From NCBI GenBank assembly GCA_963743015.1, contig CAVUOD010000010.1, positions 84,298 to 148,297 on the forward strand: DNA of 64,000 nucleotides, read 5' to 3'. The position numbers were made by a program, and so were the translations under genes. Shown piece after piece: positions 11,298 through 47,535 of the stretch (positions are counted from its first letter, which is position 1; every line of letters starts with the position of its first letter). The notes under the pieces are model-generated. The model saw only the letters and a list, made by a program, of their open reading frames with translations, was not told the origin of the DNA and ran no database searches. This DNA comes from an uncultured Alphaproteobacteria bacterium (lineage in GTDB: Bacteria; Pseudomonadota; Alphaproteobacteria; Rhizobiales; Kaistiaceae).

Positions 11298-12170
11298 CTA
11301 GGCGGGCTTCCAGCGGACGTAGGTTTCGCTGCCCCGCTTGGTCAGTTCGATGCCGGGCAGCGCGCTGACCAGGTCGGTGATCGTGCGGTAGCCGTAGGTC
11401 TTGGCGGCAAAGCCGGGAATGGCGCGCGTCAGCCGGTTGCCGACCGTGCGCATGTGAGCGAGACCGTCGTCGCTCATGGCCGCATCGATCGCGTCCATCA
11501 CCTGCTCGATCGGCAGGTCGACCTTCGTTGCCTTGGTCGGCGGCGGCGTAGCCGGTGCGGCGACCTTCCTGGCCGGCGGCGGCGTCTCCGGTGCGGCGGC
11601 CTTCCTGGCCGGCGCCTTGCGGCGCCGGCGGGGCGGTCGGGCTTCGGCCGGCTCGGTTGCCGCCGGCGCGGCCGGTTTCCGCTCAGCCGGTTGCCGCTGC
11701 TTCGGCTCCGCTTTCCCGGCGGCCAGCAATGTGTCGCACTCGTAGAAACGGTCGAACTCGTCCTTGTAGGCCTTGGGTGCCTTCTTTGCGCCAAATCCGA
11801 AGACCGAGAGCGCACTGGCACGGATGCGCTCGGCCAGAGGCGTGAAGTCGCCGTCGCTGGAGGCGATGCAGATGCCGTCGAGCTGCCGCCCGTTCAGCAT
11901 GTCCATCGCCTCGATGACCAGCTTCATGTCGGTGGCGTTCTTGCCGCGCGTCAGCGGCGACACGTTCACCGCCGTCAGGGCAAAATCGTCGATATGCTTC
12001 ATCCACGACTTCATCTTGCCGCTCTTGAACTGGCCATAGATGCGGCGGATGGCGACGGTGCCGTGCTTCTCGGCCTCGCGCATGATCAGCGGCATGTAGG
12101 CCGCACTGATGTTGTCGCCGTCGATGAGGAGGGCAAGCTTGGTGGCGGCAGTCGCCGCGTTCTGGGTCAT
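11298..12170 (-). CDS. NYN (LabA/DUF88-like) domain protein with a Pro/Ala/Lys-rich linker and a C-terminal OST-HTH/LOTUS-like domain
   Basis: N-terminus LALLIDGDNIS...ICIASSDGDFTPL is the NYN nuclease fold signature. The C-terminus ...LAHMRTVGNRLTRAIPGFAAKTYGYRTITDLV resembles OST-HTH. Confidence 0.75.
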   Translation of the reverse strand: MTQNAATAATKLALLIDGDNISAAYMPLIMREAEKHGTVAIRRIYGQFKSGKMKSWMKHIDDFALTAVNVSPLTRGKNATDMKLVIEAMDMLNGRQLDGICIASSDGDFTPLAERIRASALSVFGFGAKKAPKAYKDEFDRFYECDTLLAAGKAEPKQRQPAERKPAAPAATEPAEARPPRRRRKAPARKAAAPETPPPARKVAAPATPPPTKATKVDLPIEQVMDAIDAAMSDDGLAHMRTVGNRLTRAIPGFAAKTYGYRTITDLVSALPGIELTKRGSETYVRWKPA

Positions 12171-12181
12171 TGCCTCGTCTC

Positions 12182-13561
12182 CTAGGCCGGGATCATGACG
12201 ATCACCCTGAGGCCGCCGAGCGGGCTATCGTCAAGGGTGATGTCGCCGCCGTGGTTGCGGGCGATGTCGCGGGCAATCGACAGGCCGAGGCCGGTGCCGC
12301 TCTCGTCGATGTTGCGCGCATCGTCGAGCCGGTAGAACGGCTTGAACACCGCCTGGCGTTCCTCCGCCGGGATGCCCGGCCCGTCGTCGTCGACGGTCAC
12401 CGTCAGCTTGCCCTCGGCGTGGCTGCCGGTGACCTCGATGCGCTTGCTGTGGCGCGCCGCATTGCCGACGAGATTGTCGATGCAGCGCTTGAAGGCCTGC
12501 GGCCGCACCCGCACCATCGGGTCGCCGGCATAGGAGACCTCGGTCGCATGGCCGGCAAGGCGCGCCTGGCGGCCGATCTCGTCGAGCATGACGGCGATGT
12601 CGGTCGTCACCGTGTCCTCGTCGCTGTCGCCGCGGGCAAAGGCGAGGTAGCCGTCGAGCATACGGTTCATATCGTCGACGTCCTTGCGCAGTTCCTCGGC
12701 GTCCGGCGAGTCCTCGAGCAAAGCGAGCTGCAGGCGGAAGCGGGTGAGGATCGTGCGCAAGTCGTGGCTGACGCCGGCGAGCATGGCGGTGCGCTGGTCG
12801 ATCTGCCGCTCGACGCGCTCCTTCATGTGGTGGAAGGCGATCGTTGCCTGGCGCACCTCGCGGGCGCCGCGCGGCGGAAAGCCGGGCACGGCGCGGCCCT
12901 TGCCGAAAGCGTCGACCGCCGCCGTCAGGCGCAGGATCGGACGGATCTGGTTGCGCAGGAAGATGATGGCGATGGCGAGCAGCACCACCGAGGTCGCCAC
13001 CATCCACCAGATGAAGATGAGCGAATTGGAGACGTAGGCCTGGGCGCGCGGGGCGAAGACGCGCAGCACGTTGTGGTCGAGCTGGATGCGGATCTCGATC
13101 AGGCTCGAGCGGCCGACGGTGTCGATCCAGAACGGCTTGCCGATCTTGCTCGAGATCTCCTGGCTGAGCACCCGGTCGAGCGGCGAGAAGAACGGCTTGG
13201 GGCCGGCCGCCGGCAGCGGCTGGGGCGGCAGCACGGCGATGTTGAGGCCCATGCGCTCATTGGCGATGCGGGTGATGGTCTTGAAGTCGGCATCCTGCGG
13301 ATAGCTGTCGAGGATGTCGACGATGGCGGCGATCTCGCCGACCACGGTGGAGGAGAGCTGGGCGGTGACCAGCTGCCAGTGGCGCTCCATGAAGACGAAG
13401 GCGACCAGCGCCTGGAGCAGCACGGTCGGGGCGATGATGATGATCAGCGCCCGGGCGAACAGGCCCTTGGGCAGGATCGCGTTGATCCCCCGGGTCAGCC
13501 GTCGCCAGCGGGCGCGCAGGCCGCGCGCCGCAGGTGCCGGAGCGTCGACTGTCGTCGCCAT
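12182..13561 (-). CDS. EnvZ-like sensor histidine kinase (possibly CenK-type)
   Basis: Two TM segments, a HAMP region, an H-box LAGVSHDLRTIL, and N/G boxes NLVGNAARH and GTGLGLSIARDIARNHGG. Confidence 0.85.
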   Translation of the reverse strand: MATTVDAPAPAARGLRARWRRLTRGINAILPKGLFARALIIIIAPTVLLQALVAFVFMERHWQLVTAQLSSTVVGEIAAIVDILDSYPQDADFKTITRIANERMGLNIAVLPPQPLPAAGPKPFFSPLDRVLSQEISSKIGKPFWIDTVGRSSLIEIRIQLDHNVLRVFAPRAQAYVSNSLIFIWWMVATSVVLLAIAIIFLRNQIRPILRLTAAVDAFGKGRAVPGFPPRGAREVRQATIAFHHMKERVERQIDQRTAMLAGVSHDLRTILTRFRLQLALLEDSPDAEELRKDVDDMNRMLDGYLAFARGDSDEDTVTTDIAVMLDEIGRQARLAGHATEVSYAGDPMVRVRPQAFKRCIDNLVGNAARHSKRIEVTGSHAEGKLTVTVDDDGPGIPAEERQAVFKPFYRLDDARNIDESGTGLGLSIARDIARNHGGDITLDDSPLGGLRVIVMIPA

Positions 13562-14320: not shown

Positions 14321-14863
14321 TCACCGGTCGATCATGCGCGTGACCTTGTCACGCTCGTCGGGGCTGATCATCAGGCGCAGGAAGCGCTCGGCGCCCTCGC
14401 GTTGCACCGGCGTCAAGTTCTCCAGCGCTGCCGCGATACGCTTCACCTGCGGGTCGCGCAGGCGGGCGGCGAGCGCGCGCCCGGCTTCGGTCGGGAAGAG
14501 CAGGCGCTGGCGGCGGTCGACCGGGCCGGGGCGCTGCTCGATGAAGCCGGTGTCGACGAGCTGCTTGAGCACGCGGCCGAGGCTCTGCTTGGTGATCTTG
14601 AGGATGTCGAGCAGGTCGGCGACGCGGATGCCGGGATGGCGACTGACGAAATGGATGACGCGGTGGTGGGCGCGCCCGAAGCCGAGCGTGAGAAGGGCGG
14701 CGTCGGGATCGGAGATGAAATCGCGATAGGCGAAAAACAGAAGCTCGATGAAGAGGATCTCGGGCTGATCGGCGAGCGACAACGGCGCCACGACCGGCAG
14801 GCGCGAGGCTCCCTTCGGCCGTCGGGCCGGCGTATCGTCCGATTTGAAATTTACGTCAGCCAT
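14321..14863 (-). CDS. MarR family transcriptional regulator (PetP-like position)
   Basis: Winged HTH: VADLLDILKITKQSLGRVLKQLVDTGFIEQRPGPVDRRQRLL. Confidence 0.8.
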   Translation of the reverse strand: MADVNFKSDDTPARRPKGASRLPVVAPLSLADQPEILFIELLFFAYRDFISDPDAALLTLGFGRAHHRVIHFVSRHPGIRVADLLDILKITKQSLGRVLKQLVDTGFIEQRPGPVDRRQRLLFPTEAGRALAARLRDPQVKRIAAALENLTPVQREGAERFLRLMISPDERDKVTRMIDR

Positions 14864-14864
14864 G

Positions 14865-14893
14865 TTGACATATTTTACGCCGATTGGTACTCA
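14865..14893 (+). promoter_or_regulatory. candidate promoter TTGACA-N17-TACTCA, with a GTAC-TCA-GTAC palindrome, in the MarR/ilvE divergent region
   Basis: Read directly. The -10 is weak and the distance to the ilvE ATG is about 180 nt. Confidence 0.25.
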
Positions 14894-15072
14894 GTACAAG
14901 TCGCGGCCAATGACGCGAAGGCGTTCGCCGTCCCGGCGACCTGGACCAGCCGTTCCGCGGCACCATATCGGCGATTCCGGTGTGACGCAAAGAACGTCGC
15001 CCGCTTCGCCGACCCGCCCGATCCAACACAAGTGAGGCATCGCCTGAGGATGCCTCCGGGGAGGAAGACATC

Positions 15073-15972
15073 ATGGCTGCTCAGCCCTTCGACCAACGCG
15101 ACGGCGTCATCTGGATGGATGGCGAATTCGTCAAGTGGGCGGATGCCAAGGTCCACGTCCTGACCCACGCACTGCATTACGGCAGCGCCGTGTTCGAGGG
15201 CGAACGCGCCTATGGCGGAGAGATCTTCGAGCTTACCGCACACACCCAGCGGCTGCACGATTCGGCCAAGATGATCGGTTTCGAAGTTCCCTATTCGGTC
15301 GAGACCATCAACCAGGCCTGCAACGAACTGCTGGTGCGCGAAGGCCTCAAGGACGCCTATGTGCGCCCGATCGCCTATCGCGGCAGCGAGCAGATGGGTG
15401 TCGCCGCCCAGCAGACCAAGATCCACGTCTCGATCGCGGTGTGGGAGTGGCCCTCCTACTTCAAGCCGGAAGAGCGGCTGAAGGGCATCCGCCTCGACAT
15501 CGCCCGCTATCGCCGGCCCGACCCGGCAACCGAGCCGTCCAAGGCGAAGGCCGCCGGCCTCTACATGATCTGCACCATCTCCAAGCACGAAGCGGAGCGG
15601 AAGGGTTATGCCGACGCGCTGATGCTCGACTGGCGCGGCCAGGTCGCCGAGGCGACCGGCGCCAACGTCTTCTTCGTCAAGGACGGCGTCATCCATACGC
15701 CGACACCCGACTGCTTCCTCGACGGCATCACCCGCAAGTCGGTGATCAAGCTGGCCAAGAAGCGCGGCTACGAGGTGGTCGAGCGCGCCATCATGCCCGA
15801 CGAGATGGAAGGCTTCGAGCAGTGCTTCCTGACCGGCACGGCGGCGGAAGTGACACCGGTGTCGGAGATCGGCCCGCACAAGTTCAGCGTCGGCGAGATC
15901 ACCAAGACGCTGATGGAAGACTACGACGCGCTCGTCCGCCCCAAGCAGCGCGCCATGGCCGCCAACGGCTGA
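15073..15972 (+). CDS. ilvE: branched-chain amino acid aminotransferase
   Basis: 299 aa. IWMDGEFVKWADAKVHVLTHALHYGSAVFEGERAY... and ...GITRKSVI...TGTAAEVTPV are class IV aminotransferase motifs. Confidence 0.95.
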   Translation: MAAQPFDQRDGVIWMDGEFVKWADAKVHVLTHALHYGSAVFEGERAYGGEIFELTAHTQRLHDSAKMIGFEVPYSVETINQACNELLVREGLKDAYVRPIAYRGSEQMGVAAQQTKIHVSIAVWEWPSYFKPEERLKGIRLDIARYRRPDPATEPSKAKAAGLYMICTISKHEAERKGYADALMLDWRGQVAEATGANVFFVKDGVIHTPTPDCFLDGITRKSVIKLAKKRGYEVVERAIMPDEMEGFEQCFLTGTAAEVTPVSEIGPHKFSVGEITKTLMEDYDALVRPKQRAMAANG

Positions 15973-15983
15973 GCCTGCATCAC

Positions 15984-16014
15984 GCGCGCGCCGCGGCTTG
16001 CACGCGGCGCGCGC
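15984..16014 (+). terminator. GC-rich hairpin after ilvE (no U-tract)
   Basis: GCGCGCGCCGCG-GCTTGCA-CGCGGCGCGCGC, a perfect 12-bp stem 12 nt after the ilvE stop. Confidence 0.35.
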
Positions 16015-16064
16015 CGTGGCCAAGATATTCCCGCCCGGGATGCCAGTCGGGTGGGAAATCCGTC

Positions 16065-18710
16065 ATGGCGGACATCTTCATCAGCTACACGTCGAGCGAC
16101 CGCGACTGGGCGTTCTGGATTGCCCGTGAGCTCGATGCGCTCGGCCACGTGCCGCATATCCATGAATGGGAGATCAAGGGCGGCGACGACATCTATGCCT
16201 GGATGGAGAGCCGCCACGCCGCCGCCGACCATGTTCTGTGCGTCGTCTCCGACGACTATCTGAAGGCGCCCTATTCGACGCTCGAGCGCAACGCCGCCCT
16301 GTGGCAGGCGGTCGCCAAACGGCCGGGTTTCGTGCTGCTGGTCGCAGTCAAGCCCTGCCGCTTTCCGACGCTCGCCGACCATCTCCGCCGCTGCGAGCTG
16401 TTCGGCGTATCCGAAGAGGAAGCCCGCGAGCGCTTCCGCGCCTTCATGGCGAAGCCGGATGCGTCTCCGACGTCCTACTTTCCCGGCCAGGCGTTCGCCG
16501 TCTCCAACATTCCCATCCGCGTGCCGGCGCACTTCCTCGGCCGCGACGATTCGCTGGCGGCGATCGAGGCGGCCCTCGACCGCTACCAGGGCCGCGTCGC
16601 CATCACGGCGCTCCATGGCTTGCGCGGGGTGGGCAAGACGACGCTCGCCGCCGCCTATGCCGAGCGCCATCGCACAGACTATCGCGCTACCTGGTGGATA
16701 CGGGCGCAGACGGCGGAGGGCATGCGCGCCGATCTGGTCGGCCTCGGCGTTCGCCTCGGCTGGGTCACGGCGGACGAGAAGGAGGAGCCGGCGCTCGCCG
16801 TGGTCATGGAGCGGCTGCGGAACGAAGGCGAGGGACTGCTGCTCATCTACGACAACGCGGTCGATGCCAAGGCGCTGAAGGCCTATCTGCCGGCCGGCGG
16901 CCGGGCGCACGCGCTGGTCACGTCCAATGCGCCGGCCTGGCGCGGCGTCGCCGAACCAGTGGAGATCAGGCTGTGGCCGAAGGAGATCGGCGCCGACTAT
17001 CTGGTTGCGCGTACCGGCCGCGAGGACGAGCGCGCAGCGGCGGCAGCCCTGTCGGACGCGCTCGGCGGCCTGCCGCTGGCGCATGAGCAGGCGGCGGCCT
17101 ATTGCGAACGGCTCGACTTGTCGCTGGCCGAATACCAGAGGCGCTTTGCCGCCTCGCCGGCGAAGTTCCTCGACAACAGCCGCGATGCGCCGAGCGAGTA
17201 CCACGACGGTCTGACCGTGGCGAAGACCTTCGCGCTCGCCATCGAGGAAGCGGCGAAGCTTCATCCCGCCGCCGAGCCGCTGATTGTCCATGCCGCCTTT
17301 CTGGCGCCGGAACCGATCCCGCTGTTCCTGTTTTCAGAGGGGCGCGAGAAGCTCGACGAGCCGCTGGCTTTGGCGCTGGCCGACGACGACGGCCTTGACG
17401 AAGCGATTGCGGCGCTGCGCGCCTTCGCGCTGGTCGACCGCGAAACGATCCCCGATGAGCGCGATCCGTCGATCACCACGGAGTGCGTCCGCCTGCATCG
17501 CCTGGTGCGTCAGGTGGTGGCAGGGCGGCGGGAAGGCGACAGGCGCGAAAATGTTCGGCGTGCGTTGGTGAGGACGTTGGCAGCAGTTTATCCCGAATAC
17601 ATATGGCGCGATCCTGCGACATGGCCACGGGCGCGCCGGCTCGATGGGCTGGCCATCGGGTTGCTTGCTGGTGACGCTGCCCTACCTGACCAGGCAGAGG
17701 ATGCTGCTGCCTCTGCGCTTATCGGCGCCGGAAACTACAAGCAATTTGCCCTCGCAGCTTATGCGCAAGCGCGACCGCTCTATGAGCGCGCGCTGGCGAT
17801 CCGTGAGAAGGTGCTTGGCCCCGAGCATCCCAGCATCGCGAAAAGCCTCAACAGTCTTGCCTTCCTGCTGCGTGACCAGGGCGACCTTGGCGGCGCGCGA
17901 CCGCTGTTGGAACGTGCGCTGGCGATCGACGAAAAGGTGCTCGGCCCCGAGCATCTCTCCACGGCGCTGAGTCTTCACAACCTCGCCAGCCTGCTGCAGG
18001 ATCAGGGCGATCTCGCCGAAGCGCGACCGCTCAATGAGCGCGCGCTGGCGATCTACGAGAAGGCGTTGGGCCCCGAGCATCCCGACACAGCGGCAAGCCT
18101 CAACAACCTCGCCTTCCTGTTGCAGGATCAAGGCAACCTTGCCGACGCGCGACCGCTTCATGAGCGCGCGCTGGCAATTTGGGAGAAGGCGCTCGGCCCC
18201 GAGCATCCACATACGGCGACCAGCCTCAACAACCTTGCCATCCTGCTGCGGAGCCAGGGAGACCTCGCCGGGGCGCGATCGCTTTATGAGCGCGCGCTGG
18301 CGATACGCGAGAAGATGCTTGGCCCCGAGCATCCGGATACGGCGCTCAGCCTCAACAACCTTGCCTTCCTGCTGCGGGCCCAAGACGACCTTGCTCGGGC
18401 GCGACCGCTTTACGAGCGCGCGCTGGCAATTTGGGAGAAGGTGCTCGGCGCCGGGCATCCGCACACCAATCGCGGGCGTGGCAATCTGGCCAGTTTGATG
18501 CTTGCCGCCGATCAGCCGGCGCGGGCTCTCCCACTCGCCGAAGCCGCCCTTACCTCCCATGACAAGGCGCTGGGGGCGGATCACCCGTGGACCAAAGACT
18601 CCGCCCGCATCACTGCCGATGCGCTCGACGCCCTCGGCCGCGGCGATGAGGCGGCGGCGCTGCGCGAGCGCTACGCCCTGCAAGCGGACGAGGCCGGCAA
18701 GGCGACGTGA
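16065..18710 (+). CDS. TIR-NB-ARC-TPR STAND NTPase
   Basis: 881 aa starting at MADIFISYTSSDRDWAFW (TIR_2-like, with a candidate catalytic Glu in APYSTLERNAALW). NB-ARC motifs: Walker A GLRGVGKTTLAAAY, Walker B LLLIYDNA, and GGLPLAHEQAAAY (GLPL). Then about 7 kinesin-light-chain-type 42-aa TPRs. The upstream part of the 1191-aa track ORF overlaps ilvE and was discarded. Confidence 0.9.
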   Translation: MADIFISYTSSDRDWAFWIARELDALGHVPHIHEWEIKGGDDIYAWMESRHAAADHVLCVVSDDYLKAPYSTLERNAALWQAVAKRPGFVLLVAVKPCRFPTLADHLRRCELFGVSEEEARERFRAFMAKPDASPTSYFPGQAFAVSNIPIRVPAHFLGRDDSLAAIEAALDRYQGRVAITALHGLRGVGKTTLAAAYAERHRTDYRATWWIRAQTAEGMRADLVGLGVRLGWVTADEKEEPALAVVMERLRNEGEGLLLIYDNAVDAKALKAYLPAGGRAHALVTSNAPAWRGVAEPVEIRLWPKEIGADYLVARTGREDERAAAAALSDALGGLPLAHEQAAAYCERLDLSLAEYQRRFAASPAKFLDNSRDAPSEYHDGLTVAKTFALAIEEAAKLHPAAEPLIVHAAFLAPEPIPLFLFSEGREKLDEPLALALADDDGLDEAIAALRAFALVDRETIPDERDPSITTECVRLHRLVRQVVAGRREGDRRENVRRALVRTLAAVYPEYIWRDPATWPRARRLDGLAIGLLAGDAALPDQAEDAAASALIGAGNYKQFALAAYAQARPLYERALAIREKVLGPEHPSIAKSLNSLAFLLRDQGDLGGARPLLERALAIDEKVLGPEHLSTALSLHNLASLLQDQGDLAEARPLNERALAIYEKALGPEHPDTAASLNNLAFLLQDQGNLADARPLHERALAIWEKALGPEHPHTATSLNNLAILLRSQGDLAGARSLYERALAIREKMLGPEHPDTALSLNNLAFLLRAQDDLARARPLYERALAIWEKVLGAGHPHTNRGRGNLASLMLAADQPARALPLAEAALTSHDKALGADHPWTKDSARITADALDALGRGDEAAALRERYALQADEAGKAT
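17769..18524 (+). repeat. six tandem 126-bp units encoding 42-aa TPR repeats, inside the STAND gene
   Basis: GCGCGA(C/T)CGCT... unit starts at 17769, 17895, 18021, 18147, 18273 and 18399, an exact 126-bp period. Confidence 0.9.
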
Positions 18711-18736
18711 CGCGTTGTCTCCTGCACCCCCCACAA

Positions 18737-18764
18737 CAAAAAAGCCGCCGGTCTCCCGGCGGCT
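18737..18764 (-). terminator. rho-independent terminator of cspA
   Basis: The minus strand reads AGCCGCCGG-GAGA-CCGGCGGCT followed by TTTTTTG, 46 nt after the cspA stop. Confidence 0.8.
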
Positions 18765-18809
18765 ATCAGAAGTTTCCGAGCGGCGCCTGCGGGTCGCCGC
18801 TGGAAAGTG

Positions 18810-19025
18810 TCAGCCTACAATTTGCAGATCGACTGCCTTGGGCCCTTTGCCTCTCTCGTCCGGCTCGGTGTCGAAGGACACCTTCATGCCGTCCGTCAGG
18901 GGGCCAATGCCGGACCGCTCGACGGCAGTGACATGAACGAACACATCCTTGCCGCCGCCGTCCGGCGTGATGAAGCCGTATCCCTTAGAGGCGTTGAAGA
19001 ACTTGACGGTGCCATTCTGGCGCAT
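18810..19025 (-). CDS. cspA: cold-shock protein, CspA family
   Basis: 71 aa. GTVKFFNASKGYGFITPDGGGKDVFVHV carries the RNP1/RNP2 motifs. Confidence 0.95.
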   Translation of the reverse strand: MRQNGTVKFFNASKGYGFITPDGGGKDVFVHVTAVERSGIGPLTDGMKVSFDTEPDERGKGPKAVDLQIVG

Positions 19026-19285
19026 CGCATGACCTTTTCAGTTCAGTCTCCCGGATGCGGACGGCACGCGGTCCGGCGAGGTGGTCCCCGCCGGGCCTCG
19101 CGTCGCCCACGGACAAACTATGATCCAGTGGGGGGGAGAAAACAACGTCCGGCAGCGCCGCAGCCCCTGCGAGCCGGCTCAAGTGCCTGACGGCACGTGA
19201 TTTTTGTCCGGCGGCCGGACCCCGGCCAAGCGCTCCGCGGCGAAGCCGCGTGCGCCCGGCCGAGTGTTTTTGGCGCGTCTTGCGC

Positions 19286-20563
19286 TTACTTGCTGACCTT
19301 CAGCTTGCCCATCTGAAGGAATTGCATGACCGCCTTTTCAAAGTACGGCTCGGTGATGCCGCGCCTCACCTTGCCCATGAAGTACTTCTCGAACGCGATC
19401 TTGGCGACGTGGACCCATTTGCCTTGCGACGACCAGTTGACGTTGCGCGGCGGGTTCTGCGGCTGGGCAATGAAGGCGACGCCGGTGTCGCCGAAGTCGG
19501 CCAGGCAGATCGCGTTCCAGCTCGCCTCGTGCGAGGTCTCCTTGCCGACGATGGCATCGCGGATGTTGAGCGCGGTTGCCGTCACCATGCTCTCGATCAT
19601 GTAGCCGGTCTTGGGCACGCCCACCGGCACCGGCGTCGGCTCATAGGGCGGAATGGCGATGCACACGCCGACGCCATAGACGTTGGAGTATTTCGGGTTG
19701 CGCTGGTGGTGGTCGACAATGACGAAGCCGCGCGGGTTGACCAGCCCCTCGATGCCGCGCACCGCGGGAATGCCGCGGAAGGCGGGCAGCATCATGGAGT
19801 GCTTGTAGGGCAGCTCGTGCTTCTTCTTCTCGCTGCCGTCCTCATTGAGCTCGAGCACATAGGCCTTGCCGTCCGCGAACTTCTCCACCTTGGCGTTCAC
19901 CACCCACTTGATGGTGCGCTCGCGCAGTGCGCTTTCCATCAGGCCCTTGGTGTCGCCGACGCCGCCCAGGCCGAGATGGCCGATATAGGGCTCCGAGGTG
20001 ACGAAGGTCATCGGCACTTTGTCGCGAATCTTGCGCTGGCGCAGATCGGTATCCATGATCATCGCGAACTCGTAGGCCGGGCCGAAGCAGGAGGCGCCCT
20101 GCACGGCACCGACGACGATCGGGCCGGGGTCGGCGCAGAATTTCTCCCAGGCCTGCGAGCCGCCGGCAGCGTGATCCACGTCGCACACCGAGGTCGTGTT
20201 CTTCTCCGGGCCGAATCCCTCGATCTCGTCGAAGGCGAGCTCGGGACCGGTGGCGATGACCAGATAGTCGTAGGTGATCTCTTCGCCGTTCGACAGCGCG
20301 ATGCGGTTTTCCTCCGGCACCAGCTTCTCCGCCGCGGCATGGACGAAGTCGACCTTGTTGCGCGGCAGCACCGTGGCAAGGTCGATGGTGACCTGTTCCT
20401 TCGTCCGCCATTTCACCGCCACCCACGGATTGGACGGCGTGAACTGGAAGAAGGGCTTGTTGGAAACGACCGTGACCTTGTGGGCCCGGTCGAGGGTAGC
20501 GCGCAGCTCATAGGCGGCTGAAATGCCGCCGATGCCGCCGCCGAGAACGACGATATGCGACAT
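19286..20563 (-). CDS. sqr: sulfide:quinone oxidoreductase (FAD-dependent, NAD(P)/FAD-binding)
   Basis: Start MSHIVVLGGGIGGISAAYEL with AAGGAG upstream. ...VIATGPELAFDEIEG..., conserved Cys residues and the C-terminal amphipathic tail fit the SQR family. Confidence 0.85.
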   Translation of the reverse strand: MSHIVVLGGGIGGISAAYELRATLDRAHKVTVVSNKPFFQFTPSNPWVAVKWRTKEQVTIDLATVLPRNKVDFVHAAAEKLVPEENRIALSNGEEITYDYLVIATGPELAFDEIEGFGPEKNTTSVCDVDHAAGGSQAWEKFCADPGPIVVGAVQGASCFGPAYEFAMIMDTDLRQRKIRDKVPMTFVTSEPYIGHLGLGGVGDTKGLMESALRERTIKWVVNAKVEKFADGKAYVLELNEDGSEKKKHELPYKHSMMLPAFRGIPAVRGIEGLVNPRGFVIVDHHQRNPKYSNVYGVGVCIAIPPYEPTPVPVGVPKTGYMIESMVTATALNIRDAIVGKETSHEASWNAICLADFGDTGVAFIAQPQNPPRNVNWSSQGKWVHVAKIAFEKYFMGKVRRGITEPYFEKAVMQFLQMGKLKVSK

Positions 20564-23829: not shown

Positions 23830-25183
23830 TCACACCATGTGGCGCATGTCGGCGGCGAAGGTCGGGAAGGCGTAGACCATCTCGCCGAATTCCGCAGTGG
23901 CGATGCCGTGGCGCATGGCCAGCGCGAAGACGTGGATCAGCTCCTCGCCGCCGTGGCCGACGATGTGGGCGCCGAGAATCCGTCCGCTGTCGCGCTCGCT
24001 GATCACCTTGGCCCAGGCGGCGGGTTCGGCGAAGGTGCGGGCGGAGAGCCAGTCGTGCATGTCGCTGACCGCGACATGCACGTCGAGGCCGCGGTCGCGG
24101 GCATCCTCTTCGGTCAGGCCGATGCTGGCGATGGCGGGGATCGTGTAGAGGCAGTAGGGGATCGCCGCATAGTCGGGCCGGTGCTTGGGTCCATCGACGA
24201 TGTTGCGGCCGACGAGGCGGCCCTCATAGGTGGCCAGCGGCGAGAGCTGCGGCGTATCGGGCAGGGCGTCGCCGACGATCCACACCGCCTTGTTCGAGGT
24301 CGAGCGCAGATGGTCGTCGTGCAGCAGGCGGCCATGCTCGACCGCGACCTCGCCGGATTCGATGTCGAGCCCTTCGGTGTTGGCGACGCGGCCGGCACCG
24401 TTGACCACCCGGTCGGCATCGACCGTGCGTTCCATGCCGTCCTCCTCGAAGGTCACGCGCAGGCGATCGCCGACCTCAGCGATCGCCTTGACGGCGATGC
24501 TGCCGCGCAGGTCGATGCCGAGGCGGCGCGTCTCGGCGAGGATCTGGTTCGACGGCGTCGGCATCGTGACGCGGCAGGAAGCGTCCGCCGGCCTGCAGGA
24601 TCGTCACCTTGGTTCCGGCGCGGGCATAGACGTGGCCGAACTCGAAGGCGATGACACCGCCGCCGACGAAGACCACGTCGCGCGGCTGCCGGGGCTCGCT
24701 CAGCACCTCGTCGGAGGTGATCATCAGCTCGGCGCCGGGGAAGGCGAGCGGGCGCGGCCGCGATCCGGTGGCGATGACGATGTGCCCGGCCTCGTAGATT
24801 TGGCCGCCGGCGCGAACCGCGTTGGGCGTGACGAAGTGGCCGTGGGCACGCACCAGATGCACGCCGCGCTTCTCGAGTGCCGCGGTGAGGGCGCCCGGTA
24901 TGTGGGCGATGATCTGCTTCTCGCGCGCGATCAGTTCCGCCCAGTCGAGCCGTGCCGGCCCGACCGCGATATGGTGGGCGCCGGCATGGGCGATCGTGTC
25001 GAGGGCGTGGGCGGCGGCGACCAGCACCTTCTTCGGCGTGCAGCCGCGGTTGGAGCAGGTGCCGCCCAGTTCGGCCGGCTCGAGCAGTGCCACCTTGAGG
25101 CCGGCATGGCGCGTCGGCACCGTTACCCCCATGCCGCCATTGCCGCCGCCGATGATCACGACGTCGTAACTGTGGTTGGCCAT
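23830..25183 (-). pseudogene. FAD-dependent pyridine nucleotide-disulfide oxidoreductase (glutathione reductase / dihydrolipoamide dehydrogenase-like), frame broken near 24541-24553
   Basis: N-terminus YDVVIIGGGNGGMG...LGGTCSNRGCTPKK (redox CxxxxC) ...VVFVGGGVIAFEF...DADAVE joins QILAETRRLGIDL...GDA...HIVGHGGEELIH. The junction GAA-C-CAG fits one extra C. Confidence 0.85.
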
Positions 25184-25340
25184 GTTGCGCCCTCCCGTTT
25201 GCGTTCCAGGCAGGATAGGGGAGCGGCGTTCACAGGGCGACGGGTGGCGCTGCACGATTCCGTCACGCGGTGTTGATGCAGATCAGCGTGCTGTCAGGTG
25301 TATCCAGGTCTAAGCGGGTGGGCGCGACAGCTGGAGAGGT

Positions 25341-44895: not shown

Positions 44896-45981
44896 TCAGG
44901 CGAAATCGTCCAGCCGGTCGAATGCCGCTGACTTGATCAGTGCCACGACCGGCTGGCCAACCGCGATGTCGAGCGCCTTGGCCGCATCGCGCGTGATGCG
45001 CGCCACCAGCATCTGACCGCCGACATCGAGCTGCACCTCGACCGCGGCACCGGGGCCGATGGCGATGTCGGTCACCGTCGCGGCGAGGCGATTGCGGATC
45101 GACAAGAGGCCGGGGTCACCCACCGCCAGTGCCACCTCGCGCGCGCGCACGCGCAGGCGCACCGTGCTGCCCGGCGAGCGGTCGATCGCCGGCGTCCACA
45201 TGCGCCCGGCCGGATGATCGAGGATCGTCATGCCGCTCTGCGCATCGTGCGCGATGACCTCGGCCGTCAGCACCATGCTCGCTTCGAAGCGCCCGGTATG
45301 GGGACGCAGGTCGAGCCGGCCGAAGACGTCGTTCACCGTGCCGCTGGCGATCACCTTGCCGTCGGCGAGCAACACCAGCGTGTCGGCCAGCCGCGTCACC
45401 TCGTCGACGCTGTGGCTGACATAGACGATGGGCAGCTTCATCTCGTCGCGCAGGCGCTCGACATAGGGCAGGATCTCCTCCTTGCGCGCCGGGTCGAGCG
45501 AGGCCAGCGGCTCGTCCATGATCAGCAGGCGCGGGCTCTGCAGCAAAGCGCGGCCGATGGCGACGCGCTGCTTCTCGCCACCGGAGAGGCCGGCCGGGCG
45601 GCGCTGCAGGAGGTCGCCGATGCCGAGCAGTTCGACGATCTGGTCGAACGAGCCCCAGCGCTGCCGGCGCGGCGTGCGGCGGCGGCCATACATCAGGTTG
45701 CCGTGCACCGAGTAGTGCGGAAACAGCCGGCCTTCCTGGAAGACATAGCCGATGCCGCGCTTGCGCACCGGCACATCGACGTGCCCGCCGGCATCGAACA
45801 GCACCGCATCGTCGAGGCGGATCGATCCCCGGTCGGGACGCACAAGCCCGGCGATGGCGTTGGTGAGCGTCGACTTGCCGGCGCCGGAACGACCGAAGAG
45901 GGCGGTGACGCCGCCGCTGCTGGCAAAGCGCGCGCTCAGGGTGAAATCGCCCAGCGCCTTTTCGATGTCGACGGTGAGCAT
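44896..45981 (-). CDS. modC: molybdate ABC transporter ATP-binding protein
   Basis: Walker A GRSGAGKST, signature LSGGEKQRV, Walker B LLIMDEP, and a C-terminal TOBE/Mop domain. Confidence 0.9.
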   Translation of the reverse strand: MLTVDIEKALGDFTLSARFASSGGVTALFGRSGAGKSTLTNAIAGLVRPDRGSIRLDDAVLFDAGGHVDVPVRKRGIGYVFQEGRLFPHYSVHGNLMYGRRRTPRRQRWGSFDQIVELLGIGDLLQRRPAGLSGGEKQRVAIGRALLQSPRLLIMDEPLASLDPARKEEILPYVERLRDEMKLPIVYVSHSVDEVTRLADTLVLLADGKVIASGTVNDVFGRLDLRPHTGRFEASMVLTAEVIAHDAQSGMTILDHPAGRMWTPAIDRSPGSTVRLRVRAREVALAVGDPGLLSIRNRLAATVTDIAIGPGAAVEVQLDVGGQMLVARITRDAAKALDIAVGQPVVALIKSAAFDRLDDFA

Positions 45982-45984
45982 GGG

Positions 45985-46680
45985 TCAGGCCGCCGTGCGG
46001 CGGGCGACGCGGCGTGCCAGCGTCTCGGAGACGAGCAGCGCGGCGAAGGCGACGACGATGGCAATCAGCGTCAGGCGCAGCGCCGGCAGCTCGCCGCCGG
46101 GCACCTGGGCATTGGTGTAGATCGCCAGCGGCACGGTCTGGGTGATGCCGGGAATGTTGCCGACAAAGGTGATGGTGGCGCCGAACTCGCCGAGCGCGCG
46201 GGCGAAGGAGAGCACCGTGCCGGCGACGATGCCGGGAGCGGCAAGCGGCAGGGTCACGGTCACCAGCACGCCGATGCGGCGGGCGCCGAGCGTTGCCGCG
46301 GCGGCGCCAAGCCGCGGGTCGATCGCCTCGATCGACAGGCGGATGGCGCGCACCATCAGCGGAAAGCCCATGATCGCCGCGGCCAGCGCCGCGCCGGTCC
46401 AGTTGAAGGCGAAGACGATGCCGAAGGCATGCTGGAGGAAGGCGCCGATCGGCCCCTTGGTGCCGAAGGCGAGCAGCAGCAGATAGCCGGTGACCACCGG
46501 CGGCACGACCAGCGGCAGATGGACGATGCCGTCGATGAGCGAGCGGCCGACGAAACGGCCGCGGGCGAGCAGCCAGGCGACTGCGATGCCGAAGGGCAGG
46601 CTGGCCAGCGCCGCCACTGCCGCCACGCGCAGGCTCAGTTCGATGGCGGACCATTCCTGCGGGGTCAGCGGGTCGAGCAT
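45985..46680 (-). CDS. modB: molybdate ABC transporter permease
   Basis: 231 aa. EAA-loop region ...AARTLGA-like GAAAATLGARRIGV..., typical of ModB, in operon position between modA and modC. Confidence 0.9.
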   Translation of the reverse strand: MLDPLTPQEWSAIELSLRVAAVAALASLPFGIAVAWLLARGRFVGRSLIDGIVHLPLVVPPVVTGYLLLLAFGTKGPIGAFLQHAFGIVFAFNWTGAALAAAIMGFPLMVRAIRLSIEAIDPRLGAAAATLGARRIGVLVTVTLPLAAPGIVAGTVLSFARALGEFGATITFVGNIPGITQTVPLAIYTNAQVPGGELPALRLTLIAIVVAFAALLVSETLARRVARRTAA

Positions 46681-46692
46681 GAAGTCCTTATC

Positions 46693-47475
46693 TCATGAGC
46701 CCGGCGCCACGATGGTGAAGCCCTGCTTGCGATAGGCCGGCGCGGCCGCGTCCGAGCCGAGAAAATCGAAGAAGGCCTTGGCGTCCGGATTGGTCGAACT
46801 GGCGGTCACGGCTACAGGATAGAGGATCGGCTTGTGGCTGTCGGCGGGAAACACGCCGATCACCTTGACCGCCGGCTCGGCGGCGGCATCGGTGGCGTAG
46901 ACGATGCCGGCCGGTGCTTCGCCGCGGGCGACGAAGGCGAGCGCCAGGCGCACGTTCTCCGACTGCACCACGCGGCCCGCGATGCTGTCCCACACGCCGA
47001 GGCTCTCCAGCGATGCCTTGCCGTATCTGCCGGCCGGTACCGAATCGACATTGGCCATGGCCAGGCGTCCGTCGGGGCCGAGCAGGCCGGCGAGGTCCAT
47101 GCCCGGCGCGATCGTGATCTTCGCCGTCGAATCCTTCGGCGCGACCAGGACGATCTCATTGCCGAGCAGGGTGCGCCGCGTCTCCGGCTTCACCAGCTTG
47201 TGCTCAACGGCATAGTCCATCCAGGCCATGTCGGCGGAAAAGAAGATGTCGGCCGGGGCGCCCTGTTCGATCTGCCGGGCGAGCGTCGCGGTGCCGGCAT
47301 AGCTGATGGCGACGGTCTTGCCGGTCTTGGCATGATAGGCCGCGGCGACATCGTCGAGCGCATTCTTCAGGCTGGCCGCGGCGAAGACCACCGGCTCGGC
47401 GGCAGAGGCGGGCAGGGCGACGGCGAACACCGGTGCGGCAAGGACGGCGGCAAGAAGCAGGCGACCGAAGATCAT
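46693..47475 (-). CDS. modA: molybdate ABC transporter substrate-binding protein
   Basis: Signal peptide MIFGRLLLAAVLAAPVFAVALPASA. ...VFAAASLKNALDD...SYAGTATLARQIEQGAPADIFFSAD. Confidence 0.9.
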   Translation of the reverse strand: MIFGRLLLAAVLAAPVFAVALPASAAEPVVFAAASLKNALDDVAAAYHAKTGKTVAISYAGTATLARQIEQGAPADIFFSADMAWMDYAVEHKLVKPETRRTLLGNEIVLVAPKDSTAKITIAPGMDLAGLLGPDGRLAMANVDSVPAGRYGKASLESLGVWDSIAGRVVQSENVRLALAFVARGEAPAGIVYATDAAAEPAVKVIGVFPADSHKPILYPVAVTASSTNPDAKAFFDFLGSDAAAPAYRKQGFTIVAPGS

Positions 47476-47483
47476 GGCTCCCT

Positions 47484-47507
47484 CGATATGTTCAGCCAGA
47501 CATATCG
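47484..47507. promoter_or_regulatory. candidate Mo-box / ModE operator: perfect palindrome CGATATGT-N8-ACATATCG
   Basis: Read directly in the 60-nt gap between the modE-like stop and the modA start. Confidence 0.5.
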
Positions 47508-47535
47508 CATATGTCACCACGGAGCGGCGGACGAA

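What the first reader, a model, noticed from the sequence alone, without database searches (positions are those of the whole stretch)
16065..18710. Solitary TIR-NB-ARC-TPR STAND protein wedged between ilvE and cspA
An intact 881-aa ORF combines three parts. The N-terminal TIR domain (DIFISYTSSDRDWAFW...) has a candidate catalytic Glu in YSTLERNAALW. The central NB-ARC NTPase has plant-R-protein-like motifs: GVGKTTLA, LLLIYDNA and GGLPLAHEQAAAY. The C-terminus has about seven near-identical 42-aa TPRs encoded by exact 126-bp tandem units. This is the domain logic of plant TNL receptors and of bacterial STAND/Avs-type and TIR-effector antiphage sensors. It sits alone between two housekeeping genes, flanked by a 12-bp GC hairpin (15984-16014) and the cspA terminator. 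It has escaped the frame breaks that pepper its neighbours. The highly similar TPR DNA repeats could mediate rapid expansion or contraction of the sensor domain.
Basis: partly seen in the sequence, partly recalled or inferred. Interest (0 to 1): 0.65.

Follow-up and report, generated by a model that had tools for sequence, protein, structure and literature searches.

The report
Solitary bacterial TIR–NB-ARC–TPR sensor gene
This is an intact, horizontally acquired bacterial gene for an NLR-like switch protein (a TIR enzyme head, an NB-ARC ATPase core and a TPR sensor tail), most likely a one-gene infection sensor that destroys NAD+, and it belongs to a large, already catalogued family rather than being a new kind of system.

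Summary
The 881-aa ORF at 16065-18710 (+) is real and intact. Pfam, AlphaFold2/Foldseek and profile searches show three parts. Residues 1-130 form a TIR domain with an invariant Glu74. Residues ~155-560 form an NB-ARC/AP-ATPase STAND core; its best structural matches are NRC4, Apaf-1, CED-4 and RPP1, and its best sequence-profile match is AfsR. Residues 569-862 hold seven 42-aa kinesin-light-chain-type TPRs.

Synteny shows the gene is accessory. In 80 related Hyphomicrobiales loci the HK-RR-MarR-ilvE block is conserved and none carries this gene. In the closest relative ilvE abuts cspA, and window 15969-18729 (gene plus 96 bp upstream and 19 bp downstream) is the only unshared segment.

The family is large: 2,638 clusters at 50% identity with E<=1e-30. 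TPR number varies from 4 to 12, repeat positions 5/12/22/25/32/35/36 are hypervariable, and N-terminal modules are swapped on the same chassis.

The repeats are 72-82% identical, not exact. The flanking genes are intact. NCBI's model names the protein 'FxSxx-COOH system TPR protein', but that system is absent here.

Verdict: a new member of a known kind. The defence function by NAD+ depletion is inferred, not shown.

The parts
15969..18729 (+). Lineage-specific segment: the gene plus 96 bp upstream and 19 bp downstream. It is absent from the closest relative, which has an unrelated 191-bp ilvE-cspA spacer.
   Evidence: blastn against L001: homology ends at 15968 and resumes at 18730. Synteny map of 80 loci.
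15984..16014 (+). Perfect 12-bp GC hairpin with a 7-nt loop, 12 nt after the ilvE stop codon. Probably the ilvE transcript end; it has no T-tract.
   Evidence: Sequence. RNA fold of 15965-16070: -63.6 kcal/mol, z = -3.7. The arm is not a repeated element in the window.
16028..16057 (+). Second leader hairpin (11 bp, 2 G-U pairs). Its 3' arm holds the purine-rich GGGTGGGAA 8-16 nt upstream of the ATG, so it may limit translation. This is an inference.
   Evidence: strand folding; sequence.
16065..18710 (+). Intact CDS of 881 aa: a TIR-NB-ARC-TPR STAND protein.
16065..16454 (+). TIR domain (residues 1-130). A disordered linker follows at residues ~131-154.
   Evidence: Pfam TIR_2 residues 4-121, E 4e-20. 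AF2 model pLDDT 86.9. Foldseek hits to MyD88, SPARTA TIR-APAZ, AbTIR and SARM1 TIRs, TM 0.6-0.75.
16284..16286 (+). Codon of Glu74, the candidate catalytic glutamate at the start of helix alpha-C.
   Evidence: Invariant in 116 homologues and in TIR-bearing relatives down to 36% identity. Pairs with the Glu of AbTIR 'WTNYELDG'.
16527..17744 (+). NB-ARC / AP-ATPase module (residues ~155-560): NBD, helical domain, winged helix and helical extension.
   Evidence: Foldseek: NRC4, NRC3, Apaf-1, CED-4, RPP1, E 3e-12 to 1e-10. Profile against PDB: AfsR 2.6e-16, Apaf-1 1.7e-9, NRC4, Roq1. NCBIfam NF040586 scores 409 bits over residues 155-526.
16617..16643 (+). Walker A / P-loop GLRGVGKTT (residues 185-193).
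   Evidence: G185, R187, G188, G190 and K191 are invariant. Aligned to the P-loops of AfsR and Apaf-1.
16836..16859 (+). Walker B LLLIYDNA (residues 258-265). Asp263 is followed by an invariant Asn264 instead of a second acidic residue, as in AfsR (LLDNA).
17064..17081 (+). GLPL motif GGLPLA (residues 334-339).
   Evidence: L336, P337, L338 and A339 are invariant. Aligned to AfsR 'GFLPLA' and Apaf-1 'GSPLV'.
17493..17501 (+). LHR (residues 477-479), the MHD-like histidine of the winged-helix domain.
   Evidence: H478 is invariant. A weak alignment pairs 'IRLHRLVR' with AfsR 'YRFHDLVR'.
17769..18650 (+). Seven 42-aa (126-bp) kinesin-light-chain-type TPR units. Units 1-5 are similar to one another, unit 6 is half-degenerate and unit 7 is divergent. 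This is the presumed sensor.
   Evidence: TRF period 126, 78% matches, 0 indels. Identity matrices. Pfam TPR_10 x7 and TPR_12. KLC1/2 TPR structures, E 2e-41.
18743..18764 (-). Intrinsic terminator of cspA (9-bp stem plus T-run on the minus strand), 33 bp after the stop codon of the TIR gene. It is shared with the relative L001, so it is not part of the insertion.

Best explanation
The gene encodes a single-polypeptide STAND (NLR-like) sensor of the NB-ARC/AP-ATPase clade. The window's lineage acquired it horizontally as an accessory gene.

Likely mechanism, step by step:
1. At rest the NB-ARC core holds the protein monomeric and ADP-bound. This is inferred from Apaf-1, plant NLR and Avs precedents.
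2. The C-terminal array of KLC-type TPRs binds a trigger, most plausibly a conserved phage protein. Its hypervariable positions form the specificity surface. This is inferred.
3. Nucleotide exchange drives oligomerisation. This is inferred; an intact P-loop, GLPL motif and MHD-like His are shown.
4. Oligomerisation brings the N-terminal TIR domains together. They assemble the composite active site around Glu74 and cleave NAD+. The result is growth arrest or death of the infected cell (abortive infection). The TIR fold and the invariant Glu are shown; the activity is inferred.

No partner gene is needed, so the gene works alone.
For: Architecture:
- TIR_2 and TPR_10/12 are above Pfam thresholds.
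- A confident AF2 model of residues 1-560 (pLDDT 85.8) matches NRC4, NRC3, Apaf-1, CED-4 and the TIR-NLR RPP1 over up to 545 columns.
- The NBD-only profile finds only NB-ARC proteins at the top of the PDB list: AfsR 2.6e-16, Apaf-1 1.7e-9, NRC4, Roq1.
- The TIR model matches NAD+-cleaving TIRs: SPARTA, AbTIR, SARM1.

Catalytic competence:
- Glu74, the P-loop Lys, the Walker B Asp, GLPL and His478 are invariant in 116 homologues.
- Glu74 is kept down to 36% identity and aligns with the AbTIR Glu.

Accessory status:
- The gene is absent from all 80 syntenic loci, with a clean indel against the closest relative.
- GC3 is 0.80 against 0.85-0.94 in the longer neighbours; the 71-aa cspA is 0.78.
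- Homologues sit on a Methylobacterium plasmid and in mobile elements.

Conflict-system signatures in the family:
- TPR number ranges from 4 to 12.
- Seven hypervariable repeat positions sit on an almost invariant scaffold.
- The same NBD-TPR chassis (55-76% identity) carries swapped heads: TIR, nucleotide cyclase, DUF4062 or wHTH. DUF4062 is reported to be a TIR-like NADase (bioRxiv 10.64898/2026.05.01.722283, abstract).
- Homologues neighbour caspase-like, SLATT, CHAT, other TIR, GIY-YIG and Abi genes.

Precedent:
- TPR-sensor STANDs (Avs1-24) sense phage proteins and kill through their N-terminal effectors (PMC13581612).
- A plant TIR-NBARC-TPR protein causes cell death that needs its catalytic Glu and P-loop (PMC9806590).
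Against: - No experiment exists for this subfamily.
- PADLOC finds no Avs or other STAND defence model. It gives only weak TIR-level hits, the best being bSEFIR at 1e-9.
- The gene lies among housekeeping genes, not in a defence island.
- No homologue was found in 50,697 phage records.
- STAND clades switch between defence and non-defence roles (PMC13581612). The same chassis with a wHTH head is presumably a regulator.
- The Walker B motif lacks the second acidic residue (DN), so ATP hydrolysis may be slow or absent.
- The sensor is short (~320 aa) and very regular, unlike the large irregular Avs sensors.
Confidence: 0.55

Rival explanations
1. The TIR domain is a signal generator rather than a killer. 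After activation it makes a cyclic-ADPR-type or other NAD-derived messenger, and this switches on an effector encoded elsewhere in the genome. That would resemble Thoeris, or the SLATT pore proteins seen beside some homologues.
For: - In two Methylobacterium loci the homologue is directly preceded by a SLATT_1/DUF4231 gene.
- In L085 a Nuc_deoxyrib_tr-family gene starts at the homologue's last base (8514), so the two appear co-transcribed.
- Many bacterial TIRs produce cADPR isomers (PMC10022894, abstract).
Against: - In the window, and in L081, L082 and L084, there is no such partner; the neighbours differ in every locus.
- The inserted segment in the window holds this gene only.
- No ThsA-like or SLATT gene lies among the ten nearest genes.
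Confidence: 0.17
2. It is a non-immune STAND switch, for example a stress-, nutrient- or self/non-self-triggered regulator of dormancy or programmed cell death. In that case the TPRs would bind a host protein or peptide rather than a phage protein.
For: - The closest solved relative of the ATPase core is the transcription regulator AfsR.
- Sister proteins carry wHTH, XRE-HTH or cyclase heads.
- The housekeeping context has no defence genes.
- KLC-type TPRs bind short host peptides in eukaryotes (my own knowledge).
- Aravind's group placed related TIR-AP-ATPase-TPR proteins in peptide-linked conflict systems (PMC7159879).
Against: - The gene is dispensable and patchy: it is absent in the closest relative and in 80 syntenic loci.
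- The sensor positions are hypervariable.
- Homologues occur on plasmids and mobile elements.
- These are signatures of arms-race genes, not of conserved physiology.
Confidence: 0.18
3. It is the FxsT component of an FxSxx-COOH peptide / radical-SAM / vWA-MoxR (VMAP) ternary conflict system, as NCBI's naming rule would label it.
For: - NCBIfam NF040586 'FxSxx-COOH system TPR protein' scores 409 bits against a cut-off of 300.
- RefSeq names plasmid homologues 'fxsT'.
- Kaur et al. describe a TIR + AP-ATPase + TPR gene downstream of FxSxx-type systems (PMC7159879).
Against: - No ORF in the 64-kb window ends in FxSxx. The only credible CxxxCxxC-containing ORF (GC3 0.84) is 30 kb away and 224 aa long.
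- The ten nearest genes are HK, RR, MarR, ilvE, cspA, Pyr_redox_2, DLH, FecR, NYN-LOTUS and the C-terminal fragment of a second, frameshifted Pyr_redox_2 gene.
- The insertion holds one gene.
- None of the seven homologue loci examined shows radical-SAM, vWA or MoxR genes.
Confidence: 0.03
4. It is an inactive relic: a recently acquired gene that is not expressed or no longer functional.
For: - No sigma-70-like promoter was found.
- The start region is buried in a stable hairpin.
- At least one other gene in the window is frameshifted.
Against: - The 2,646-bp ORF is intact and keeps every family-invariant residue.
- A consensus sigma-70 scan is uninformative in a 67% GC alphaproteobacterium.
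- Tight translational control is expected for a toxic effector (inference).
Confidence: 0.05

Closest known systems
Bacterial TIR + AP-ATPase (NB-ARC) + TPR proteins, named 'FxsT' by NCBIfam NF040586 (Kaur, Burroughs, Iyer & Aravind 2020, PMC7159879; earlier AP-ATPase/STAND surveys by Koonin, Aravind and Leipe, cited from my own knowledge)
   Same: The three-part architecture is the same. The HMM match is above the curated cut-off (409 vs 300 bits). RefSeq uses this name for 67%-identical homologues.
   Different: The FxSxx-COOH peptide, the radical-SAM/SPASM maturase and the vWA-MoxR partners that define the system are absent. The gene stands alone in an alphaproteobacterium, whereas the described systems are actinobacterial operons.
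Avs / AVAST antiviral STAND families (Avs1-24; Gao et al. 2022; PMC13581612)
   Same: It is a single polypeptide with an N-terminal death effector, a STAND NTPase and a C-terminal TPR-like sensor. N-terminal effectors are swapped on a conserved chassis. Distribution is patchy and horizontally transferred.
   Different: No PADLOC Avs model matches. The NTPase belongs to the NB-ARC/AP-ATPase clade. The sensor is a short (~320 aa), highly regular array of 42-aa KLC-type repeats rather than a large irregular solenoid. No trigger is known.
Plant TNPs (TIR-NBARC-TPR, formerly XTNX; Johanndrees et al. 2022, PMC9806590)
   Same: The domain order is identical. Walker A, Walker B, GLPL and MHD-type motifs are present. 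Maize TNP-IIa kills cells through its catalytic Glu and P-loop. That paper already records bacterial TIR-NB-TPR proteins.
   Different: According to that paper the similarity lies in the NB domain only; TNP TIRs group away from bacterial TIRs. Orthology was not tested here.
Plant TIR-NLR resistosomes (RPP1, ROQ1, WRR4A)
   Same: RPP1 aligns structurally over 545 columns spanning TIR plus NB-ARC. Roq1 and ADR2/WRR4A are hit by the NBD profile. Both use oligomerisation-dependent TIR NADase logic.
   Different: The plant proteins use an LRR plus a post-LRR sensor instead of TPRs, and they signal through EDS1, which bacteria lack. Sequence identity is 13-18%.
AfsR (Streptomyces SARP-NB-ARC-TPR regulator; PDB 8k60, 8jke)
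   Same: It is the closest solved relative of the ATPase core by sequence profile (E 2.6e-16). It shares the Walker B 'LLDNA' form and GxLPLA, and it has a C-terminal TPR region.
   Different: Its N-terminal module is a DNA-binding SARP domain and it is a transcription activator, not a TIR enzyme.
Fungal NLRs with TPR/ANK/WD repeats of high internal conservation (Dyrka et al. 2014, PMC4986451)
   Same: Both have an NB-ARC core, KLC-like 42-aa TPRs (the Podospora TPR structure 4y6c is hit at 8.5e-23), variable repeat number and hypervariable positions on an invariant scaffold.
   Different: Fungal repeats are often >85-90% identical and undergo concerted evolution (my own knowledge). Here the units are 72-82% identical, and within-protein similarity does not exceed between-protein similarity.

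Membership tests
NB-ARC / AP-ATPase clade of STAND NTPases | Walker A P-loop GxxGxGK[T/S] | tested here: met
   GLRGVGKTT at residues 185-193. G185, G188, G190 and K191 are invariant in 116 homologues. Aligned to the AfsR and Apaf-1 P-loops.
NB-ARC / AP-ATPase clade of STAND NTPases | Walker B hhhhDD/E with two acidic residues | tested here: inconclusive
   The motif is LLLIYDNA. Asp263 is present but the second position is an invariant Asn264. AfsR, an accepted NB-ARC protein, has the same LLDNA form.
NB-ARC / AP-ATPase clade of STAND NTPases | GLPL motif in the helical domain | tested here: met
   GGLPLA at residues 334-339, with L336, P337, L338 and A339 invariant. Aligned to AfsR GFLPLA and Apaf-1 GSPLV.
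NB-ARC / AP-ATPase clade of STAND NTPases | MHD-type histidine in the winged-helix domain | tested here: inconclusive
   In LHR (residues 477-479) H478 is invariant. It lies at the strand/helix junction of the predicted winged helix. The only residue-level alignment, to AfsR 'FHD', is a sub-threshold segment.
NB-ARC / AP-ATPase clade of STAND NTPases | NBD - helical domain - winged-helix fold like Apaf-1/CED-4/plant NLRs | tested here: met
   Foldseek probability 1.00 with E 3e-12 to 1e-9 for NRC4, NRC3, Apaf-1, CED-4, RPP1 and ZAR1. NACHT (NOD2) and ORC/Cdc6 score far weaker.
NB-ARC / AP-ATPase clade of STAND NTPases | Pfam PF00931 NB-ARC at or above the gathering score | tested here: not met
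   The score is 16.8 bits against a cut-off of 23.5, over the P-loop region only. Several 63-67%-identical homologues do carry a precomputed PF00931 hit. A family profile finds NB-ARC structures at 1e-16 to 1e-7.
Enzymatic (NAD+-cleaving) TIR domains | TIR fold and Pfam TIR_2 match | tested here: met
   TIR_2 scores 72.9 bits against a cut-off of 28. The AF2 model has pLDDT 86.9. Foldseek TM is 0.6-0.75 to MyD88, SPARTA, AbTIR and SARM1 TIRs.
Enzymatic (NAD+-cleaving) TIR domains | Catalytic glutamate at the start of helix alpha-C | tested here: met
   Glu74 lies in helix 69-84. It is invariant in 116 homologues and in relatives down to 36% identity. It pairs with the Glu of AbTIR 'WTNYELDG'. 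That this residue is AbTIR's catalytic E208 is from my own knowledge. No residue-level structural superposition was available.
Enzymatic (NAD+-cleaving) TIR domains | NAD+ hydrolase or cyclase activity | not testable with these tools
   This needs a biochemical assay.
FxSxx-COOH system (FxsT) | Match to NF040586 above the curated cut-off | tested here: met
   409.4 bits against 300, over residues 155-526.
FxSxx-COOH system (FxsT) | Adjacent precursor peptide ending in FxSxx-COOH | tested here: not met
   No ORF of 30 aa or more in any frame of the 64-kb window ends in F-x-S-x-x.
FxSxx-COOH system (FxsT) | Adjacent radical-SAM/SPASM maturase, metallopeptidase and vWA-MoxR-VMAP genes | tested here: not met
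   The ten nearest genes have other identities. The only credible CxxxCxxC ORF (GC3 0.84) is 30 kb away and 224 aa long. The inserted segment holds one gene.
Avs / AVAST | Match to an Avs NTPase/sensor model | tested here: not met
   PADLOC-DB v2 returns only weak TIR-level hits (bSEFIR 1e-9, Aga TIR, PDC-S66) and a P-loop hit (VakA). Avs7-24 post-date that library.
Avs / AVAST | Effector-STAND-TPR-like sensor in one polypeptide, with effector swapping | tested here: met
Avs / AVAST | Activation by a phage protein and protection from phage | not testable with these tools
   This needs phage challenge or a trigger screen.
Thoeris-like TIR signalling | Adjacent effector gene that reads the TIR product (ThsA or similar) | tested here: not met
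   The neighbours are ilvE and cspA. No PADLOC defence hit of note is found in the ten nearest genes.

The most novel reading that the evidence does not exclude
This subfamily may be a distinct, untested class of bacterial NLR. It has an NB-ARC core of the AfsR type, with a DN Walker B. Its sensor is short and built from interchangeable 42-aa KLC-type TPR modules with seven hypervariable positions. The family is expanded into thousands of variants in soil Hyphomicrobiales. Together these could form a diversifying receptor repertoire, like fungal NLRs, that recognises short peptide epitopes rather than whole protein folds. The gene also spreads as a bare, gene-sized cassette with no integrase, transposase or target duplication, so it may move by an uncharacterised route, for example flank-homology replacement after transformation.
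Probability: 0.2. Interest if true: 0.55.

Novelty: new member of a known kind. Interest (0 to 1): 0.3.

Why it matters
The locus is a clean natural example of an NLR-type gene gained as a single unit between two housekeeping genes, and an 'empty site' is available in a close relative. That makes it a convenient candidate for cloning. The subfamily (TIR + AfsR-like NB-ARC + regular KLC-type TPRs) is abundant in soil alphaproteobacteria, but I found no experimental work on it. Its short sensor falls below the 400-aa limit used in the 2026 STAND sensor survey (PMC13581612). Identifying its trigger would extend the bacterial pattern-recognition catalogue. It would also bear on the origin of plant TIR-NBARC-TPR (TNP) proteins. 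In practical terms, the automatic RefSeq name 'FxSxx-COOH system TPR protein (fxsT)' is misleading for solitary members such as this one.

Tried and rejected
- Exact-sequence look-up of the protein in public assemblies found nothing on record. The best non-self homologue is only 69-75% identical over the full length. No true orthologue exists to compare TPR copy number at this locus.
- Whole-protein and single-domain phmmer against PDB gave only TPR hits and sub-threshold TIR/Apaf-1 hits. Family profiles and structure prediction were needed.
- I looked for a mobile-element signature around the gene. There are no flanking direct repeats or terminal inverted repeats. The hairpin arm is not a dispersed repeat. 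Flanks are not conserved among four homologue loci. There is no paralogue in the window.
- In L081 the homologue lies 5 kb from an ilvE-MarR-RR-HK block. I rejected this as a shared hot-spot because the adjacent Pyr_redox_2 gene is not the window's orthologue and the genome is distant (ilvE 59% identical).
- Phage genomes gave no tblastn match.
- Rfam on 14800-19400 gave only a sub-threshold cspA thermoregulator match over the cspA mRNA (28 vs 78 bits).
- The FxSxx-COOH system was rejected.
- Concerted evolution or recent unequal crossing-over of the repeats is not supported.
- The PADLOC hits of the neighbours are generic domain matches in genes that are syntenic in relatives lacking the TIR gene (RR to PD-T4-6, cspA to CSD_V).

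Full report
**1. The observation**

The ORF exists as described. The ATG is at 16065, the stop is at 18708-18710, and the product is 881 aa. The same frame stays open upstream to 15135, through ilvE. However, all 116 aligned homologues start MADIF(I/V)SY, so 16065 is the true start.

Pfam gives TIR_2 over residues 4-121 (E 4e-20). It also gives TPR_10 in seven stretches (E 4e-86), TPR_12, and a sub-threshold AAA_16 hit at the P-loop. The quoted motifs are present.

The 12-bp/7-nt hairpin at 15984-16014 is exact. It folds well beyond shuffled controls (z = -3.7). The cspA terminator is at 18764..18743 on the minus strand.

Two descriptive claims fail.
- The 126-bp period is exact and has no indels, but the sequence is not exact. 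Units 1-5 share 72-82% DNA identity and 71-79% protein identity. Unit 6 shares ~60-68% DNA identity and unit 7 ~46%. The longest in-register identical run is 28 nt.
- The flanking genes are intact. HK, RR, MarR, ilvE, cspA, a Pyr_redox_2 oxidoreductase and a dienelactone hydrolase all give complete domain matches. I confirmed one frame break about 5 kb away. A Pyr_redox_2 gene is split between 24476-25282(-), which holds profile positions 1-184, and 23830-24603(-), which holds positions 185-291 plus the dimerisation domain.

**2. What the protein is**

The Pfam NB-ARC model scores only 16.8 bits on this protein against a cut-off of 23.5. I therefore tested the central module in three other ways.
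- An AlphaFold2 model of residues 1-560, built on 116 homologues, has pLDDT 85.8. Its best PDB matches are the plant NLRs NRC4 and NRC3, Apaf-1, CED-4 and the TIR-NLR RPP1. The RPP1 alignment spans 545 columns, covering TIR plus NB-ARC. E-values range from 3e-12 to 1e-10. ORC/Cdc6 and NOD2 score far lower.
- A profile of the ATPase region alone (21 sequences down to 35% identity) finds AfsR (2.6e-16), Apaf-1 (1.7e-9), NRC4, Roq1, NRC1/3 and WRR4A in the PDB.
- The printed alignments pair the P-loop, Walker B and GLPL motifs with those of AfsR and Apaf-1.

The family's Walker B is hhhhDN, with Asn264 invariant, exactly as in AfsR. An invariant His478 (LHR) occupies the MHD-like place in the predicted winged helix.

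The separate TIR model has pLDDT 86.9. It matches MyD88, SPARTA TIR-APAZ, AbTIR and SARM1 TIR domains with TM 0.6-0.75. Glu74 opens helix alpha-C and is invariant in 116 homologues. It is kept in TIR-bearing relatives down to 36% identity. It pairs with the Glu of AbTIR 'WTNYELDG'; that this is AbTIR's catalytic residue is from my own knowledge.

The C-terminal repeats are kinesin-light-chain-type TPRs. They hit KLC1/2 at 2e-41 and a Podospora KLC-like TPR at 8.5e-23.

**3. Genomic status**

A scan of 185,579 species-representative genomes with IlvE returned 80 Hyphomicrobiales loci. The HK-RR-MarR-ilvE block is conserved in nearly all of them. None has a homologue of this gene within 10 kb.

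The closest relative, MAG MFD02416.bin.2.231, has neighbours 87-94% identical in protein. Its order is ilvE-cspA-oxidoreductase. DNA homology with the window stops at 15968 and resumes at 18730. Only a 191-bp unrelated spacer lies between those points in the relative. Two more distant relatives (L047, L078) also have ilvE next to cspA. Parsimony therefore favours a gain of 15969-18729 in the window's lineage.

The segment carries one gene. It has no integrase, no transposase, no flanking direct repeats and no paralogue in the window. GC3 of the gene is 0.80, and 0.76 in the TPR part. The longer neighbours have 0.85-0.94; the 71-aa cspA has 0.78. None of the ten nearest genes is a defence gene.

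**4. The family**

Full-length homologues number in the hundreds at 60-75% identity, and none is closer than that. They come mostly from soil metagenomes and Xanthobacteraceae/Methylobacterium. A search of 1.84 billion cluster representatives with residues 1-560 finds 2,638 clusters at E<=1e-30 and 11,635 at E<=1e-10.

Many relatives keep the NBD-TPR chassis at 55-76% identity but carry a different N-terminal module:
- an adenylate/guanylate cyclase;
- DUF4062, recently reported as a TIR-like NADase (bioRxiv 10.64898/2026.05.01.722283);
- an OmpR-type wHTH;
- unassigned helical domains.

Among 116 TIR-bearing members, the number of 42-aa units ranges from 4 to 12, and 797 of 815 unit spacings are exactly 42 residues. 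Across 841 units the scaffold is almost invariant. Positions 5, 12, 22, 25, 32, 35 and 36 exceed 2.5 bits of entropy, and the same positions differ among the window's own units. Units within a protein are no more alike than units from different proteins (0.63 vs 0.61). The array is therefore modular and diversified but is not undergoing concerted evolution.

Homologue neighbourhoods all differ, and several are conflict- or mobile-element-like:
- two caspase-like proteins (L084);
- an IS21/serine-recombinase island with GIY-YIG, a small TIR gene and an overlapping Nuc_deoxyrib_tr gene (L085);
- a tandem paralogue plus TIR and CHAT-TPR genes (L086);
- a recurrent NBD-TPR / SLATT(DUF4231) / TIR-NBD-TPR cassette on Methylobacterium plasmid pVL1_5, beside Abi and BrnT genes.

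No phage genome carries a homologue.

**5. Mechanism**

Shown:
- an intact tripartite STAND protein;
- conserved nucleotide-binding motifs;
- a TIR fold with an invariant Glu at the catalytic position;
- accessory, horizontally mobile distribution;
- a diversifying sensor and swapped effector heads.

Inferred from Apaf-1, plant TNL resistosomes, Avs proteins and a maize TNP: trigger binding to the TPR array releases autoinhibition, nucleotide exchange drives oligomerisation, the clustered TIR domains cleave NAD+, and the cell stops growing or dies. I put this at about 0.55.

The main rivals are these.
- The TIR makes a messenger for a trans-encoded effector (0.17). SLATT and Nuc_deoxyrib_tr neighbours in some loci support this. 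The solitary state here argues against it.
- The protein is a non-immune regulated-death or stress switch (0.18).
- It is a member of the FxSxx-COOH system (0.03).
- It is a silent relic (0.05).

**6. Comparison with the known**

The architecture has been described repeatedly. Kaur et al. [quoted passage not shown] This is the source of NCBIfam NF040586, which this protein passes, and of the RefSeq name 'fxsT' on homologues. Johanndrees et al. 2022 note bacterial TIR-NB-TPR proteins as counterparts of plant TNPs. The 2026 STAND survey includes the AP-ATPase clade among its 589 clades.

The defining partners of the FxSxx-COOH system are absent here, so the name does not describe this gene. No PADLOC Avs model matches. 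This is therefore a new member of a known kind, not a new kind.

**7. Verdict**

The finding is real and its core reading is correct, but it is unsurprising to specialists. Its value lies in three things: the clean empty-site comparison, the evidence for a modular hypervariable KLC-TPR sensor family that has not been tested experimentally, and the annotation caveat. Interest is 0.3.

Noticed in passing
window 23830-25282 (-): A Pyr_redox_2 / Pyr_redox_dim oxidoreductase gene (lipoamide-dehydrogenase or glutathione-reductase type) is split by a frameshift. ORF 24476-25282 holds profile positions 1-184. The overlapping ORF 23830-24603, in another frame, holds positions 185-291 plus the dimerisation domain. 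It could be a real pseudogene or an assembly error; the closest relatives are long-read MAGs.
   Followed up: partly
window 16019-16069 (+): The leader of the TIR gene forms a second stable hairpin (11-bp stem at 16028-16057). Its 3' arm contains the only purine-rich, SD-like stretch (GGGTGGGAA), and its outer stem reaches the ATG. This may provide translational damping of a toxic protein. The whole 106-nt leader folds with z = -3.7 against shuffles.
   Followed up: partly
L083 1-6482 and L087 5481-11808 (Methylobacterium sp. SyP6R contig; M. indicum plasmid pVL1_5): A conserved three-gene cassette: an NBD-TPR protein without a TIR head (divergent strand), a SLATT_1/DUF4231 gene, and the TIR-NB-ARC-TPR homologue. 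RefSeq names both large genes 'fxsT' although no FxSxx-COOH system is present. The plasmid also carries Abi, BrnT and recombinase genes.
   Followed up: partly
L085 8514-9041: A Nuc_deoxyrib_tr-family gene (nucleoside 2-deoxyribosyltransferase-like, 175 aa) starts at the last base of the TIR-STAND homologue (8514), so the two appear co-transcribed. The locus lies inside an IS21/serine-recombinase island that also has GIY-YIG and a 144-aa TIR_2 gene.
   Followed up: no
L086 8631-10302: A second copy (80% and 69% identical in two pieces, possibly frameshifted) lies in tandem right after the TIR-STAND homologue. A 316-aa TIR_2 protein and a CHAT-TPR protein lie nearby. This is local paralogue expansion of the family.
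   Followed up: no
window 11298-12224 (-): A 308-aa protein with an NYN ribonuclease domain plus an OST-HTH/LOTUS domain lies next to the EnvZ/OmpR-type two-component pair. It has no PADLOC match.
   Followed up: no
window 15921-17291 (-) and 17682-18734 (-): Long antisense ORFs (456 and 350 aa) overlap the TIR gene. They are typical high-GC artefacts and not evidence of genes. The 1,191-aa 'ORF' from 15135 is likewise a read-through of the ilvE region in another frame.
   Followed up: yes
window 44896-47535 (-): An intact molybdate-type ABC transporter operon: an SBP_bac_11 binding protein, a BPD_transp_1 permease and an ABC_tran+TOBE ATPase. The three genes abut one another in the same frame.
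   Followed up: no
window 18737-19047 (-): The Rfam cspA thermoregulator model (RF01766) matches the cspA transcript region, but far below the gathering score (28 vs 78 bits, E 1.7e-4).
   Followed up: no
L082 7099-11386: In this MAG the TIR-STAND homologue sits between a 107-aa ABC_tran fragment and a 231-aa ABC_tran gene of a branched-chain amino-acid-type transporter operon. This may be another single-gene insertion that truncated a neighbour.
   Followed up: no
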